Shown one piece after another: positions 30,001-42,000 of a stretch of 64,000 bases of DNA (positions are counted from its first letter, which is position 1; each line of letters starts with the position of its first letter). The position numbers were made by a program. This stretch comes from Syntrophales bacterium (lineage in GTDB: Bacteria; Desulfobacterota; Syntrophia; Syntrophales; PHBD01), in NCBI GenBank assembly GCA_963668175.1, contig OY764159.1, forward strand, positions 2,112,001 through 2,176,000, written 5' to 3'.

Positions 30001-33000
30001 AGAGATAAGCCCCCCGGCCTCCGCTTCGCCTCCGGCGGGCGACGGGGATTTCGAGCAATTCTGGGCCCACTATCCGCGGAAAACGGCGAAACAAGCCGCC
30101 TTCGCCCAGTGGCGGAAGGCCAAGGACAGGCCCGGAGCGGACGAAATCGCGGCGGCGGTCGAGCGACAGAAGCGGCACAAGGCGGCCCTGCGGGCGGCGG
30201 GGCGGTTCTGCCCCGAGTGGCCGGACCCGGAGCGCTACATCCGGAAGCGGCGCTGGGAGGACGAGATTGCCGATCCGGAACCGGCGGACGGGGCCTGGGT
30301 GCCCCGGGAGTACGTCCCGGACGAGCCTGCGCCCGTGCTGTCCGAGGAGCAGCGGCAGGAGAACCTCCGGCGCATCCGCGAGCTGACCGCCTGCCTGAAG
30401 TAGGCGGGACGGTGTACGGCGGTCCTGCGGGTTTTCCGTGACGCGGAGGCGGGAGGGCGGCGAAAGCCGGCGGGGGCGGAAAGGCATGACGCGGGCGTTC
30501 CGGGGAGGGCGTTGCGAAAGCCGACGGGGGTAGGAGATTCAATGCACCGCGATTCGGTAAATAATCATTATATTATACTATATTTATATTGCATTAGGCC
30601 GGTTATCATTTATAATATCAGTATAATATCCTGACATGGCCGGATGGCGAGGGGGAGTTCGTAACCGGTTGATATTTTTAAGCGAGGTGCATCATGAATA
30701 GGGTAATTCCTGGGAAAGCGTCCCTGACAAGGGGACAGGTCCCCCGCAGGGGGGAAAGTCCCCCGCATGGGGGACGATATCCTCAGAATTTTGTCAAAAT
30801 TCTGACTACGGAGCGGCCGATATGGGGCGGATCGTTTCTTTGTTAAAGATGCAGACAAAAAGGACGTTGCGGCACAGTATCTCAAAGACACCATATGCAA
30901 TCTGCGAAAGGCGATAAACAATGACTTCTAAATTGAGGCGGCTGCTTGCATGGAAAAATCGAATTTTTAAGGGTTTCACGCTCTGGCCGACCATCGTGAT
31001 GCTGTTGTATTTCCTGCAATGGTGGGTATTATTTTATTGCCAAGATGACGTTATCCAATTTTTTTTATTCATTATATTGGTGTTCTTATTTCCGGCAGTC
31101 TGTTTTATTTGTGCACTGGTGTTGCTCGGAAGAAAAAAACCGAAGTCGTCTTTATCCTTACTTACCCCGGCATTGCTTGTGGTCTTTATGTTTCCTCTGG
31201 GGAGTAATCCTATCAAAGATATTTTCTACGATTCACGCCAATATGTAGAATTCCAAATCCAGAAAAGATTCTATTTCCCGGAGATGAACGACCCCGATAA
31301 GCTGCCCCCATACAAAGAATGGCTTATCAAAGGGCATCCTAATATCTCTAAGTATACAATTGTTTACGATTTAAATGAATCCCTGGATGAGAGAGAAAAA
31401 AGGAAAAAAGCCGAATTGCATGACCCAAAATACTGGGGTTACCGCATAACGAGAGTCGGTCGGCATTTCTATATGCTGCATGAATATTACCATTGAAGTT
31501 ATTTAAAAGGAGGGCTGGAAGATGGGACGATACGGGGCGGATCATTTCTTTGTTAAAGAAAACGGTAATAATGTCGCTGCAAAGTATCTCAAAGACACAA
31601 ATGGAAACTATATTATGGACGGTTCAACCGGGCGGCCGTATGTCGTCCCAGCCGATTTTAATCTGGACGCAGTGATTGCAAAATATAAACCTCCTTATTG
31701 GCAGTCGCTTGAACCTATCGATATTGCAACGCGCCTGGAAACGTATGTAAAATTGTTATCGAATTTTAGAAGCGGTCGGCCGGACGACTTGCAGACAGCC
31801 TATAATGGAAAGGTTGGAGCCAACTGGGTCGAGGACTTTCGGCCGGCAGCAAACTATGTGTTCGGTGCGGCGTGCTCCGCGGCAGGTTTAACCTTGCATG
31901 AATGCATGGCTGGCGGGGGAGTGTATAACCTTAAAAAAGCCCTTTGGGATAAAAACCCCGATATTGATCCCTCCGGGATATTTGGAAATAATCCGGCCAA
32001 TGTTCGACATATCAAACAGGGCTATCTGAGCCAGTTTGATCGAAATGCGCCACAACCGACTCCGTTTGATGTTAAGTTCACCGATTCCGGCAAAACAGCC
32101 ATCGTGACGGAAAACGGCAAGACATCCGTGTATAAGGCAGTTACGGGAAAGTCAAATACGACCTGGAAATATGTTCCGGTGGAGGGGGGCGGCATCGATG
32201 CGGCGGTAGATGCCGGGATCTATACGGTCCAACGCGGCAATGTCCTTGGCGATATCGCAGCCAAATTTCATACCACCGTTCAACAAATCATGGAGGCGAA
32301 TCCCGATATCAAGAATCCGGATTCGATCCGCCCCGGACAGCGAATCGTATTGCCGAAAAACGACCCCTCCGGCCCCGCCGACAACAAGAAGGACCCCGAT
32401 CCCGACCGGCAGGGCGCGACAGACCGGGGAGGCGACAACGACCGGCAATCCCGGAACATCTCCCATGATGACGGATTTACAGTGATCGCCTCAAGCGGCG
32501 GCCCGGATGTTAACGAAAACACAAGTGCTGCCGCTCCTGCCGCTGACGCGCCGGCCGGCTTTTCCGCCGATCCGTTGCGTCATGCGCTGGACGCGCTGGG
32601 GGTGAAGCCCCGCGATGTGCAATTCACCCCGGCGGCGGACTACGGGAATATAAAACCGGACTCCTTCGATATGGTGGATAAGGGCACATCCGAAAAGATA
32701 GGCTCTTGTTTGATGACTCCCGACGGCGGCGAGATGACCGCGGGCGACAGGAAGGTCGTGATGGACCGGATAAGCGGCAACGACATTCACCTGCAAACGT
32801 ACGCCAAAAACGACGACGGAGAATATGAACTCGTTGGGACGACGCGAATCGGCGACAACGACGGGGTAACGGTGACAAGGCCGTTTGCATAATATCGGCG
32901 GGCCGACCAGCGCCGCGACGCGGCTGGGGGCGAAGCGGTCGCAACGGAAAGCAATGCCTGGGAAAGCGTCCCTGACAAGGGGACGGGTCCCCCGAATGGG

Positions 33001-39000: not shown

Positions 39001-42000
39001 ATCCGTCAAGCGCAATAAAAGGTCATTCTTCCGCTATACGCCCGAATCGGTAAATAATCATTATATAATACTATATTTATATTGCATTAGGCCGTTTATC
39101 GTTTATAATATCAGTATAATATCCTGACATGGCCGGATGGCGAGGGGGAGTTCGTAACCGTTTGATATTTTTATGCGAGGTGCATCATGAATGAAAAGAG
39201 CCGTGAAGTAAAAAGAAGCGCCGCGACGATGAGCCGGAAGGACGATCGACCGGGCATCCGGTGCGCGACGATTCGATCCGCCTGCCTTCTTTTTATGGCC
39301 CTGTTCGTTTTGGCCTGGAGTCCGGGAGCATTCGCAGCGGAACCCGGCAGCCCCGCATTGTCCCAAGATAAGGAAGGTCAAGCCGCCGGGGAGAACGCAG
39401 GCGGGGAATTCAAAAAATATCGTGCCGTATTCAGCGAGCTGGTTTGCGGAGATGTCAAGGCATTGGCGGTAAGAATACGATCAGAGGAAGACAGCTTTCC
39501 TTTGATTGAAGCTGTTGACCAGAGAATATACTTTATCAACAAGACCGGCCGGATCAAGCTTGTCAAGGATTCATGGGATAACAAGTTGAATCGAAACAGG
39601 ATTAATTCTTCGGGATATATTTATCCCGCAGTATCCTGGGATTGTACGAGAGATAAGAGAGGAAAACCTTACATCATTATTTTCTCATGGTCCGGCGGTA
39701 ATTATCGGGGAGCCGAATGGACCGAAATCTATGATCTGGATGGCAGATTGGTGGCGAGCAACTATTCAGAAAAGATAAAGAATTTTCGACGCATCAATGA
39801 TTTGTTTGACAAGAAAATAGAAAAATTAGGAATTCGTTACGATTGGAGATCTGCAAAAAAAATCAGATTTAAAGAACAAGACGGGAGGTAAGCTGGATGC
39901 CGAAAGAAACAAATTACAATATCTTAATCGATAAAACGCCTGGCCGTTCTGCCGGGAACAGTCGAAAAGCAGGGGCTGCTCCATACGAAGTGAAGGTGAA
40001 AGCCGTGGAAGCGATCAGGAAGTATGCAGGTCTTTATGGATTCAATGAACATCAGACCAGCGAAGTCTTGAAAATCGTGGAACACGAATCTGGATTTAAT
40101 CCAGATGCTGCGAATCCAGACACAACTGCGTCCGGACTAGGACAGATGATGAATGACACGTTTGAGCAGTATGGGCCGCGTGGTGCGAATATTTTCGATC
40201 TGGATGCCAACGCAGAGGCAACAGTCAGATACTATCAACATTGCCTGAACAAAGCCGCAGAGAAAGGACTGACCGGAGAGAAGTTGGATACAGGTGCGTA
40301 TGCGTGTTATCATGACGGCCCGTGGAATTTTAAAGCCGGTAAGGATAAAAAAGGTGCGGATATTTATAAAAAGGTCATTAAAAAATTATCCGGTAAGCCC
40401 AAGGTTAGCAGTAACGAACGCTCCTCCAGCAACTCCGACAAGGTAGCCGAGGCGACGGAACGGGATTCCGAGCGGACAGCCGCGGCTGAGCAGCCGGACG
40501 ATGCTTATTCAACCGAAGACAGGAAGAGAAAAGACCTCGCGGGAGACGACGCCGAATCTGAAACGGCGTGGAGAGGCGGAAATTCAGATCGTCGAAGCAT
40601 ACCTAATTCATGGATAGCGGATGCCGGTAACGTGCTTTCAGATGTGTCCGGAAATGCTCTTCAAAGCGCCCTCCGCGAGGCAAGAAAGCCAACGGATGTC
40701 GAATCGGCCGCGAACACGATGACGCTTCGTGAGGCGCCGACCGATTTGCTTGCCGAACCGGGTTCTCCATTGCAGCACGTAATGGATGCGCTGGGGGTGT
40801 CGTCCGGCGATGTGCATTTAACCCCTGCGGAAGCGGACGATGAGAACGAGACACCGGACTCCTTCGATATTGTGGATAAGGGCACATCCGAAAAGATAGG
40901 CTCTTGTTTGACGACACCCGGCGGCTGCGAGATGACCGCAGGCGACCGGAAGGTCGTGATGGACCGGATAAGCGGTAATGACATTCACCTGCAAACGTAT
41001 GCCAAAAACGACGATGGAGATTTTGAGCTCGTTGGCACAACGCGAATCGGCGACAACGACGGGGTAACGGCAAGAAGGCCGTTTGCGGGTTAGCGAATGA
41101 GGCCGCTTCGTGATGCGATTACGAGAAGCGGTGCAGCGCACACAGACATTGACCGGAAGGATAACGCATGCGAGATGAATTTTCTTTCTCTGAAGTCGAA
41201 CGGATTGTTCCGGCTATTAAAAGAAGCACCGCCCAGATGTGGGTCAAGGCTGGGATTATTGTGCCGAAAGAGAATCATGTGGGCCGAGGGGTGTCGCGGG
41301 TTTACTCTTTCGAAAATCTCATTGAGCTTTTTGCAGCTGCGGAATTATCCGGATGTTGGGGGATGGCCACGAAGGGCATAGAATCGCATCTGAAGCGTCC
41401 AAGGTTTAAGAGTGCCGTCAAAGAGAGAGGCGTCTATTGCCGTGTTCGCTATGGTAACGATGCAGACAGCGGCATTACATCGGCTGTGATAATATTCATT
41501 GGAGAAATTGCGGCGGAGATAGAAAGGCGGCTGTAATATCGGCTCGATTAATTAGTCTTAGAAAAACCTTGACAGTCCCTATATTCCTCTATTAATAGAT
41601 ATACAATCTGCATAGGACGAATGGTTTATTAAAACACAGGCAGAGCAACACGCATTGTCGGCCTGCTATGACATCCGCTTCCGATCAAACCGTTAATACT
41701 GCGCCGGAGTCGCTCACAAGCGATCATTATACAATCTTTCATTTAATCCTCCAGCTCGCTTTTGCCGCGCTGTTATTCTTTTTGAACGAACTCGATAGAA
41801 GGCTGAATCTCTATCTGCTGCTGGTTCCGCTCCTCCTTGTCCCGGCATTAGTAGTGGTGATTATCTGGCTGACCAGCGTCATAACAAACAGCATTAGAAA
41901 GAGGTGGCGTCGTCTCGCTTCCGCCGTCATTGCACCGGTGATCATTTTTTGCCTCATGGCCTCGCTTGCTCACTGGCGGATCGATGCGGATTGGGTACGC

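What a model noticed while it worked through the whole genome (the two positions that open the first line are those of the whole stretch)
30921..41240. Lineage-restricted polymorphic cell-wall effectors with variable N-termini and a constant, fold-orphan C-terminal domain [...]
Nine genes in two clusters share a 61-81% identical ~110-aa C-terminal beta-rich domain: g01957, g01960 and g01967 at 2.143-2.153 Mb, and g02548, g02551, g02554, g02556, g02561 and the MITE-split g02565/66 at 2.797-2.821 Mb. Their N-terminal parts differ (SLT lytic transglycosylase, LysM, unknown), and each is followed by unrelated small ORFs. Boldest reading: this is a 'reversed' polymorphic toxin system, that is, signal-peptide-less peptidoglycan-attacking effectors whose constant C-terminal domain is the delivery handle (e.g. 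for the type VI apparatus), with the small ORFs as immunity genes. New: the domain has no Pfam family, no PDB fold match and almost no relatives.
Evidence so far: Paralogs: in BLASTP only the last ~110 residues align (54-83% identity), except g01957/g02548, which are 67% identical full length. Alignment A2 has 43 invariant columns, including GDRKVVMD and TRIGDNDG. Domains: Pfam SLT in g01960 and g01967; LysM in g01957, g02548 and g02554. Of 13 neighbouring small proteins, 12 have no Pfam hit at E<0.01. Rarity: a profile search of 1.84 billion representative proteins gives 15 hits at E<=1e-3 and 14 at <=1e-10, the latter always at the extreme C-terminus of proteins of 53-461 aa. A six-frame search gives 10 matches here and 0 in 120 other Desulfobacterota genomes. 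A metagenome scan gives 2 short contigs. Fold: AF2 model pLDDT 71; Foldseek against PDB gi [...]
(Added by a program. Inside this text positions count along the whole contig: contig position 2,112,001 is position 1 of the stretch shown here. "Call 12" and the like, gene names such as g00115 and contig names such as C1 are that model's own, and its searches are not shown. The text may have been shortened before it was handed on; [...] marks where a part breaks off. The agent that wrote the report below was given it as the finding of a first reader that could run no searches.)

Follow-up and report, generated by a model that had tools for sequence, protein, structure and literature searches.

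The report
Bacterial toxins sharing one C-terminal tag
One sulfate-reducer-type bacterium carries nine cell-wall-attacking toxin genes that differ at the front but share a rare, unclassified tail domain, each next to a likely antidote gene, which looks like a new version of a known bacterial weapon design.

Summary
Nine loci in two clusters share a ~105-aa domain that always sits at the extreme C-terminus. Seven are intact, one has an in-frame stop, and one is split by a repeat element. Their N-termini fall into different classes: SLT lytic transglycosylases, LysM-bearing modules, a glycine-rich hydrophobic module, and NlpC/P60 in metagenomic relatives.

The domain has no Pfam, PDB-sequence or clear fold match. 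It is very rare: 32 longer proteins among 5.8 billion.

Four results are new. The conservation reflects purifying selection plus mosaic recombination, not only recent duplication. The tail-domain tree ignores N-terminal class. Eight of nine genes have a signal-peptide or membrane protein gene 5-39 nt upstream, not downstream. The genome has a Francisella-like T6SS but no T4SS or phage-sheath genes.

Best reading: these are effector-immunity modules whose tail domain is a shared trafficking tag. The T6SS is the likeliest route, but this is unproven. The "reversed" design is not new. It matches the Xanthomonas X-Tfe/X-Tfi T4SS effectors (XVIPCD), to which this domain is unrelated. Verdict: a new variant of a known kind, of moderate to high interest.

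The parts
30550..30699 (.). AT-rich 150-nt repeat at the left edge of the low-GC island. A second copy (96% identical) lies at 39043-39192, just upstream of the 39187 gene. It may be a shared promoter or module boundary.
   Evidence: the repeat finder family D4. Only these 2 copies exist in the genome. Sequence read.
30815..30870 (+). 56-nt remnant of the 5' end of a g57/g48-class effector gene (77% identical to 31525-31580).
   Evidence: the repeat finder family D7.
30921..31496 (+). 191-aa membrane protein and candidate immunity protein for the following effector. It is 64% identical to the protein upstream of the paralogous effector in cluster 2.
   Evidence: ORF. No Pfam family. Hydrophobic segments and BLASTP to u48a. 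It ends 25 nt before the effector start.
31522..32892 (+). Effector g01957 (456 aa). Layout: N-terminal module of unknown fold (about residues 1-225), LysM (234-278), disordered linker, CTD (residues 351-456, nt 32572-32889).
   Evidence: Pfam LysM E 1.9e-14; weak Ntox44 hit at E 0.0063, below the cut-off. CTD placement.
33114..33815 (+). Secreted protein and candidate immunity protein. The probable start is the internal Met at about 33240, followed by a signal-peptide-like segment. It is the first of two 81%-identical tandem paralogues.
   Evidence: ORF. No Pfam family. Hydrophobic segment and paralogy. An 82-nt repeated leader (family D5) is shared with 33855 and 34593.
33856..34554 (+). Second tandem paralogue of the secreted candidate immunity protein. 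It ends 39 nt before effector g01960.
34594..35700 (+). Effector g01960 (368 aa). Layout: SLT lytic transglycosylase (residues 55-155, with the ES catalytic motif at 61), acidic linker, CTD (nt 35377-35697).
   Evidence: Pfam SLT E 2.4e-07. ES motif. CTD.
36609..37897 (-). Two overlapping ORFs (282 and 147 aa) that look like an IS3-type transposase by eye (not scanned). They are inserted between the effector modules. A similar reverse-frame ORF occurs at 4155-5450.
   Evidence: Translations. No family search was run on them.
39187..39891 (+). 234-aa protein with a signal-peptide-like segment and candidate immunity protein for g01967. It ends 5 nt before the effector start.
   Evidence: (no Pfam family).
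39897..41093 (+). Effector g01967 (398 aa). Layout: SLT lytic transglycosylase (residues 51-155, ES motif at 63), acidic linker shared with g01960, CTD (nt 40767-41087).
   Evidence: Pfam SLT E 2.5e-09. ES motif. Linker repeats D6 and D8. CTD.
41668..42243 (+). 191-aa protein with three hydrophobic segments and no adjacent effector. It may be an orphan immunity-like gene. It shows no BLASTP similarity to the other neighbours at E 1e-3.
   Evidence: (only a sub-threshold DUF2678 hit).

Best explanation
These genes encode a small, lineage-restricted family of polymorphic antibacterial effectors with reversed polarity. Each protein has three parts:
- a variable N-terminal toxic module;
- a long acidic, disordered linker;
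- a constant ~105-aa C-terminal domain, predicted as one short helix plus an eight-stranded beta-meander.

The N-terminal modules seen are two classes of SLT-type lytic transglycosylase, LysM-bearing modules of unknown catalytic type, a glycine-rich hydrophobic module, and NlpC/P60 amidase in metagenomic relatives.

The gene just upstream encodes a periplasmic or membrane protein. I infer that it neutralises the cognate N-terminal module, so it would be the immunity protein.

I infer that the constant domain is the shared trafficking or loading tag. It would let one export machine handle all the different toxins, as XVIPCD does for the Xanthomonas T4SS. Because the tag must fit one lineage-specific partner, it is held by purifying selection and homogenised or reshuffled among paralogues.

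The likeliest machine is the genome's single Francisella-like type VI secretion system at contig 160-184 kb. It is the only one-step, contact-dependent injector I found. This route is inference only, and I put it at about 0.3.
For: Shown:
- 9 copies are present, and the domain ends within 6 residues of the C-terminus in 38 of 38 family proteins.
- I assigned eight N-terminal classes among the 38 proteins by sequence motif. Three rest on Pfam hits: SLT, LysM and NlpC/P60.
- The SLT catalytic ES motif is kept in both SLT classes.
- 34 of 35 Met-starting members have no N-terminal hydrophobic segment.
- 8 of 9 effectors have a same-strand upstream gene 5-39 nt away with a signal-peptide-like or membrane segment.
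- The homologous effector pairs g57/g48 and g61/g65 have homologous upstream genes (64% and 42% identical).
- A metagenome contig repeats the same module order.
- In the conserved half of the domain, dS is 0.45 and dN is 0.086. dS is mosaic between the two halves; for g60/g48 it is 0.12 against 0.54.
- N-terminal class changes 22 times on the domain tree. Shuffled labels give 23.3 +/- 1.3, and the minimum possible is 7.
- DNA similarity is confined to the domain.
- A T6SS is present, with TssB/C, TssK, TssE, TssF, DotU, ClpV, IglE, IglI (E 9.8e-91), a small VgrG and PAAR.
- There is no VirB4, VirD4, TraG-D_C or Phage_sheath_1 match in this complete single-contig genome.

Precedent for the design: X-Tfe/X-Tfi (PMC8740702, passages).
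Against: - No secretion, toxicity or immunity has been measured.
- No vgrG, PAAR, hcp or adaptor gene lies near either cluster.
- The domain is absent from two other genomes with a T6SS. One of them has the same IglI-type system. It is also absent from all species representatives scanned by pattern. So it is not a general tag of this T6SS type.
- g60 and g67 are 46% identical, yet their upstream genes show no similarity.
- One class (g56) has its membrane-protein neighbour downstream.
- No shared promoter motif links the clusters to the T6SS operons.
- The fold resembles a beta-sheet domain used for oligomerisation and peptide binding in GT4 glycosyltransferases. That would also fit a non-trafficking role.
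Confidence: 0.5

Rival explanations
1. The constant domain is a binding or oligomerisation module, for example one that docks the enzymes on a cell envelope or assembles them. It would not be an export tag. The proteins would be bacteriolytic enzymes released by lysis or by some general route.
For: The best fold resemblance is to the DUF1975-type beta-sheet domain of TarM, GtfA and SdgB (Z 6.7, 89 residues aligned, rmsd 2.9). From recall, this domain mediates oligomerisation and peptide binding in those enzymes. Lysins often carry C-terminal wall-binding domains (general knowledge). No link to a secretion system has been shown.
Against: Binding modules usually occur at varied positions and copy numbers and in many taxa. 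This domain is single-copy and at the extreme C-terminus in 38 of 38 proteins, and it is confined to one lineage. Three classes already carry LysM for wall binding. Upstream periplasmic partner genes fit delivery into a periplasm. Z 6.7 lies in the range the tool calls a common arrangement.
Confidence: 0.2
2. The domain is a C-terminal signal for a different exporter, either a type I (ABC/MFP/TolC) system or an undescribed route. The toxins would be released into the medium and would act mainly on Gram-positive neighbours.
For: The proteins have no N-terminal signal and are acidic (pI 4.8-5.6). The conserved domain reaches the very C-terminus. The clusters are unlinked to the T6SS locus.
Against: No RTX or other type I-associated family was found in the effectors. 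From recall, type I signals are short and poorly conserved, not a folded 105-aa beta domain. Periplasmic immunity candidates are not needed for toxins that bypass the producer's periplasm and cannot cross an outer membrane. I did not search the genome for type I components.
Confidence: 0.12
3. The genes are remnants of phage or mobile-element lysins, such as virion-associated peptidoglycan hydrolases. The shared domain would be a virion-attachment module.
For: PHROGs matches to tail lysins and tape-measure lysin domains cover the SLT, LysM and NlpC parts. A phage-like replication protein (29522-30403) and an excisionase-like gene (35798-36007) flank cluster 1. The clusters have lower GC than the genome (0.49-0.51 against 0.558). 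The Atlas feature neighbours of the g51 N-terminus are mostly viral (a lead only).
Against: No PHROG family or BFVD model matches the constant domain (best E 0.046). No phage structural genes or sheath were found. Nine copies with paired signal-peptide genes in two chromosomal clusters do not look like prophage lysis cassettes.
Confidence: 0.05
4. The shared tail has no function of its own and reflects only recent duplication or gene conversion.
For: Mosaic dS between the two halves of the domain shows that conversion or recombination does occur.
Against: Mean dS is 0.51 against dN 0.17. The ratio is about 0.19 in the conserved half. The domain stays recognisable at 48-100% identity across metagenomic lineages while N-termini are swapped.
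Confidence: 0.03

Closest known systems
[quoted passage not shown]
   Same: Both have a variable N-terminal toxic domain, often a peptidoglycan hydrolase and including SLT plus a wall-binding domain. Both have a constant ~100-120-aa domain at the C-terminus. In both, about a dozen paralogues are scattered in one genome, some are truncated, and the immunity gene lies upstream and carries a signal peptide (PMC8740702, passages).
   Different: There is no sequence relation: PF20410 matches nothing in the genome or the effectors. The predicted fold is one short helix plus eight beta strands. XVIPCD did not appear in the structure-search lists; absence from a list is not proof. The genome lacks VirB4 and VirD4, so the partner must be something else.
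T6SS cargo effectors defined by marker domains (MIX, FIX, RIX, PIX, WHIX)
   Same: In both, one shared domain marks many polymorphic effectors for a single machine. WHIX effectors can carry an N-terminal toxic domain whose immunity gene lies upstream (PMC12135965, passages). A T6SS is present here.
   Different: MIX, FIX, RIX and PIX are N-terminal, judging from abstracts in the listing. WHIX is large and internal or N-terminal. None of these is a small beta domain at the extreme C-terminus. Here there is no neighbouring vgrG, PAAR or adaptor gene, and the T6SS is of the Francisella-like type, for which I know of no cargo tag.
Classical polymorphic toxin systems (Rhs, CDI, LXG and similar)
   Same: Both show modular shuffling of toxin modules onto a constant trafficking part, adjacent immunity genes, and orphan or truncated copies.
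   Different: The polarity is reversed. In the classical systems the constant part is N-terminal and the toxin C-terminal, with immunity downstream (general knowledge, recalled).
DUF1975-type beta-sheet domain of GT4 glycosyltransferases (TarM, GtfA, SdgB)
   Same: It gives the best structural superposition over the whole model (Z 6.7, rmsd 2.9, 89 of 106 residues).
   Different: Sequence identity is 8-10%. The Z score is below the level the tool treats as meaningful. The protein context is entirely different.

Membership tests
X-Tfe (XVIPCD) T4SS effectors | C-terminal XVIPCD domain (Pfam PF20410) | tested here: not met
   No PF20410 hit at E<=0.01 in any effector scanned. No match in the six-frame genome (the control genomes did not ring either).
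X-Tfe (XVIPCD) T4SS effectors | A VirB/VirD4 T4SS in the same genome | tested here: not met
   PF03135, PF02534 and PF12696 each give 0 matches in a 100%-complete single-contig genome.
X-Tfe (XVIPCD) T4SS effectors | N-terminal toxic domain with an upstream immunity gene carrying a signal peptide | tested here: met
   SLT and LysM N-termini. 8 of 9 effectors have an upstream neighbour with an N-terminal hydrophobic segment, 5-39 nt away. Immunity function itself was not tested.
T6SS cargo effectors | A T6SS encoded in the genome | tested here: met
   TssB, TssC, TssK, TssE, TssF, DotU, ClpV, IglE, IglI, a small VgrG and PAAR at contig 156-184 kb.
T6SS cargo effectors | Genetic linkage to vgrG, hcp, PAAR or an adaptor gene, or a known marker domain | tested here: not met
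   No such family appears among the proteins scanned in the window and in cluster 2. The clusters lie about 2 Mb and 2.6 Mb from the T6SS locus.
T6SS cargo effectors | T6SS-dependent export and delivery | not testable with these tools
   This needs a secretion or competition assay.
Classical polymorphic toxins | Constant N-terminal trafficking region with a variable C-terminal toxin | tested here: not met
   The polarity is the opposite in 38 of 38 proteins.
T9SS substrates (C-terminal sorting domain) | N-terminal Sec signal peptide together with the C-terminal domain | tested here: not met
   34 of 35 Met-starting members lack an N-terminal hydrophobic segment; the one exception is an internal helix at residues 33-45. 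No T9SS CTD family was found by Pfam.
Phage endolysins and virion-associated lysins | Location in a prophage or phage, or a phage family match to the whole protein | tested here: inconclusive
   PHROGs hits cover only the catalytic and LysM parts. There is no sheath and no BFVD match to the constant domain. Phage-like replication and excisionase genes do flank cluster 1.
DUF1975 beta-sheet domain (TarM, GtfA, SdgB) | Shared fold | tested here: inconclusive
   Z 6.7, rmsd 2.9, 89 residues aligned. 0 of 48,161 chains reach Z>=8. Best Foldseek E is 0.083.

The most novel reading that the evidence does not exclude
The C-terminal beta-meander domain is a cargo-loading tag for a Francisella-type (T6SS-ii-like) secretion system that a free-living Desulfobacterota lineage uses for bacterial killing. 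It would be the first export tag known for that T6SS class. It would also be a case of T6SS effectors having independently arrived at the XVIPCD-style 'toxin first, tag last, immunity upstream' design.
Probability: 0.25. Interest if true: 0.8.

Novelty: new variant of a known kind. Interest (0 to 1): 0.6.

Why it matters
If the tail domain is an export tag, it gives a simple sequence handle for finding the whole effector set of a poorly known organism. It would also give a portable tag for testing what the Francisella-like T6SS of environmental bacteria exports. That system class has so far been studied almost only in Francisella as a host-directed system (PMC12955703, abstract from the listing).

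It would also show that the 'toxin first, constant tag last, immunity upstream' design arose more than once, with unrelated tag domains. The family offers several N-terminal modules of unknown fold that are probably new antibacterial enzymes.

If the domain is only a binding module, the finding is a modest addition to lysin modularity.

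Tried and rejected
- Complex prediction: small VgrG (3 copies) + PAAR + the C-terminal domain gave 'no answer' (score 0.23 against a mark of 0.32). This is neither support nor evidence against binding.
- AF2 of the g57 N-terminal 230 aa failed (pLDDT 36, 6-row alignment), so no fold could be assigned.
- ESM Atlas with the C-terminal domain gave no usable hit.
- PDB sequence profile search gave only a chance-level hit at E 2.1.
- Neither XVIPCD nor any secretion-system component appeared among the structure-search lists. Absence from a list is not proof.
- The g57 N-terminal region has relatives only within the family, plus one 395-aa metagenome protein without the tail domain.
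- Pattern scan of GTDB species genomes: 72 pattern matches, 0 relatives.
- Metagenome scan: 335 pattern matches and 2 relatives, both on contigs under 2 kb. The genomic context of the 12-15-kb metagenome contigs that hold relatives could not be fetched.
- A sigma-54-like motif and shared 10-mers between upstream regions of effector modules and T6SS operons showed nothing above background.
- Public runs: no RNA holder is listed, so expression was not examined and read laying was not used.
- The local repeats D3, D4 and D5 are confined to cluster 1 and are not genome-wide elements.
- Two weak representative hits (P0015 and P0016; 2646 and 1485 aa; E about 4e-6; many short stretches) were not examined.

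Full report
**Observation**

The window holds three genes on the + strand: 31522-32892 (456 aa), 34594-35700 (368 aa) and 39897-41093 (398 aa).

- tblastn with the last 120 residues of the first gene finds nine places in the single-contig 4.57-Mb genome. These are the three window genes plus six at contig 2.7988-2.8212 Mb.
- A profile of eight copies finds the same nine.
- A full six-frame scan of 59,676 open frames finds nothing more; the next best hit has E 2.1.
- The eight full copies align over 107 columns with 43 invariant positions. They are 63-89% identical.
- At DNA level the similarity begins just before the domain and ends at the stop codon.
- BLASTP shows that most pairs share only this tail. 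The exceptions are g57/g48 (67% full length), g60/g67 (46%) and g61/g65 (45%). The SLT classes also share an acidic linker.

Two copies are damaged.
- g02551 carries one in-frame stop. Full-length relatives of 397-426 aa exist.
- g02565/66 is interrupted by a ~195-bp element with about two dozen partial copies elsewhere in the genome. About 32 residues of its domain are lost.

**Rarity**

- The 1.84-billion-protein representative library gives 16 hits at E<=1e-3 and 14 at <=1e-10.
- The 5.8-billion collection gives 32 proteins of 189 aa or more. Some are this genome's own. The rest come from metagenome contigs of at most 15 kb.
- 0 of 8 genomes of the same family have the domain.
- A pattern scan of all species representatives found none.
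- The metagenome scan found two short contigs.
- One of these contigs (L018) repeats the local gene order. It holds a WG-repeat secreted protein, a decayed effector with a tail-domain fragment, and then a homologue of the membrane protein that precedes g57.

**What the proteins are**

- Pfam finds SLT in g60 and g67. It finds LysM in g57, g48 and g54.
- Relatives add more SLT and LysM proteins, and one NlpC/P60 protein.
- The catalytic ES motif of SLT enzymes is present in the SLT class and in the g61/g65 class, which has no Pfam hit.
- The g56 class has a glycine- and alanine-rich hydrophobic stretch and no wall-related domain.
- I sorted 38 family proteins by motif into eight N-terminal classes. 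The set was 30 database proteins plus 8 of this genome's own. Four database entries identical to own proteins were dropped, as were the two tail-less fragments g51a and g65.
- In all 38 the domain ends within six residues of the C-terminus.
- 34 of 35 proteins that start with Met have no hydrophobic N-terminal segment.

**Neighbours**

- Eight of the nine effectors have a same-strand gene ending 5-39 nt upstream.
- The product of that gene has a signal-peptide-like or membrane segment.
- The g56 class instead has a two-segment membrane protein 74 nt downstream.
- Effectors that are homologous in the N-terminus have homologous upstream genes in two of three cases. These are g57/g48 (64%) and g61/g65 (42%; WG_beta_rep proteins). 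The g60/g67 pair does not.
- There are tandem duplicates (33114 and 33856, 81% identical) and truncated copies.

This is the pattern expected of effector-immunity modules. No protective function has been shown.

**Is the conservation meaningful?**

- Nei-Gojobori estimates over 28 pairs give mean dS 0.51 and dN 0.17. In the conserved half they give dS 0.45 and dN 0.086. Synonymous sites have diverged while the protein is held.
- dS is mosaic between the two halves of the domain. For g60/g48 it is 0.12 against 0.54; for g60/g56 it is 0.96 against 0.16. Recombination or conversion therefore also acts.
- On a maximum-likelihood tree of the 38 domains, well-supported clades mix N-terminal classes.
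- N-terminal class changes 22 times on that tree. Shuffled labels give 23.3 +/- 1.3, and the minimum possible is 7.
- The tail type therefore follows lineage, not toxin class. That fits a module that must match one lineage-specific partner.

**Fold**

- With a 19-row alignment, AF2 gives pLDDT 83 and pTM 0.71. The model is one short helix and eight strands in a meander.
- Foldseek against the PDB gives no hit at E<=0.001; the best is E 0.083.
- A Foldseek-independent search of 48,161 chains gives no Z>=8. The best are TarM (4wac) and BF3112 (3msw), both at Z 6.7. A second look agrees.
- BFVD gives nothing at E<=0.001. There are no PDB sequence relatives and no Atlas hit.
- 'No clear fold relative' stands. 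The resemblance to the DUF1975 sheet of GT4 glycosyltransferases is only a lead.

**Export route**

The genome has one T6SS at contig 156-184 kb.
- Components found: ClpV, an IcmF-like protein, an IglE-type lipoprotein, TssB, TssC, TssK, TssE, TssF/IglH and DotU.
- It also has an IglI-family protein (E 9.8e-91, above the cut-off), a 173-aa protein with weak similarity to the Francisella small VgrG, and a PAAR protein next to a 128-aa beta-helix-like protein.
- Pfam Hcp and Phage_GPD models find nothing. A 190-aa gene after tssC is the likely tube protein.

There is no VirB4, VirD4 or TraG-D_C, and no Phage_sheath_1. The T6SS is therefore the only contact-dependent injector I could find.

Against a link:
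- Nothing T6SS-related lies near either cluster.
- The IglI-type system occurs above the cut-off in 2 of 401 genomes of the phylum.
- Homologues of its small VgrG occur in other lineages.
- The domain is missing from both other T6SS-bearing genomes tested.

**Comparison with known systems**

The layout is that of the X-Tfe/X-Tfi pairs of the Xanthomonadales T4SS. Those have N-terminal toxic domains, including SLT plus a wall-binding domain. They have a ~120-aa C-terminal XVIPCD that binds VirD4. Their upstream immunity genes carry signal peptides. X. citri has 13 paralogues, some of them truncated (PMC8740702, passages read).

The domain here is not XVIPCD, and there is no T4SS. WHIX effectors show that T6SS cargo can carry N-terminal toxins with upstream immunity genes (PMC12135965, passages read).

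So the concept is known. The tag domain, the lineage and possibly the machine are new.

**Verdict**

- The effector-immunity reading is well supported by context but untested.
- The tail domain as a trafficking tag is the best explanation (0.5).
- The T6SS route is plausible but unshown (about 0.3).
- Novelty: a new variant of a known kind.

Noticed in passing
contig 156-184 kb (loci L005, L006, L016), outside the window: The genome has a Francisella-like T6SS. It has an IglE-type lipoprotein, an IglI-family protein above the NCBIfam cut-off, TssF/IglH and a 173-aa small VgrG-like protein, together with ClpV and canonical TssB/C/K/E. The IglI family is above the cut-off in only 2 of 401 genomes of the phylum. 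Homologues of the small VgrG carry names from Desulfosarcina and several myxobacteria. A 2026 abstract states that T6SS-ii is unique to Francisella.
   Followed up: partly
window 33113-33194, 33855-33936, 34593-34674: An 82-nt repeat (62-82% identical) overlaps the annotated 5' ends of three consecutive genes. The real starts of the two secreted proteins are probably internal Met codons. The repeat may be a shared leader or regulatory element.
   Followed up: partly
window 30711-30813, 32959-33099: These stretches hold short G/C-rich palindromic units of the type GGGGGAAAGTCCCCCGCATGGGG, repeated in tandem at module boundaries. They occur only in this cluster.
   Followed up: partly
window 2583-9663: A low-GC3 block carries an 8xMP membrane protein, a metallophosphatase, an ORC-CDC6-like protein and a D12 adenine methyltransferase. 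It is interrupted by a transposase-like ORF and looks like a defence island.
   Followed up: no
window 42326-43237 (-): An FRG-domain protein (E 5.8e-22) lies at the right edge of the low-GC island.
   Followed up: no
window 45742-46692 (-), 47863-48483 (+), 52189-52893 (-): Three PEP-CTERM proteins are present, so the organism probably has an exosortase sorting system.
   Followed up: no
window 12753-15245 (+), 24306-25583 (+): There is a large trypsin-like peptidase, and a caspase-like (Peptidase_C14) protein with an Lcl C-terminal domain.
   Followed up: no
window 17715-19633 (-): Two adjacent genes (496 and 138 aa) have no Pfam family. I wondered by eye whether they could be sheath and tube genes. 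No family search supports this.
   Followed up: partly
contig 2800189-2800698 (L001 15189-15698): The N-terminal module of the g51 class carries an NNPGNI motif. Its nearest ESM Atlas feature clusters are mostly phage proteins of 119-137 aa without a Pfam family (score 0.96). This is a lead that the toxin module is phage-derived.
   Followed up: partly
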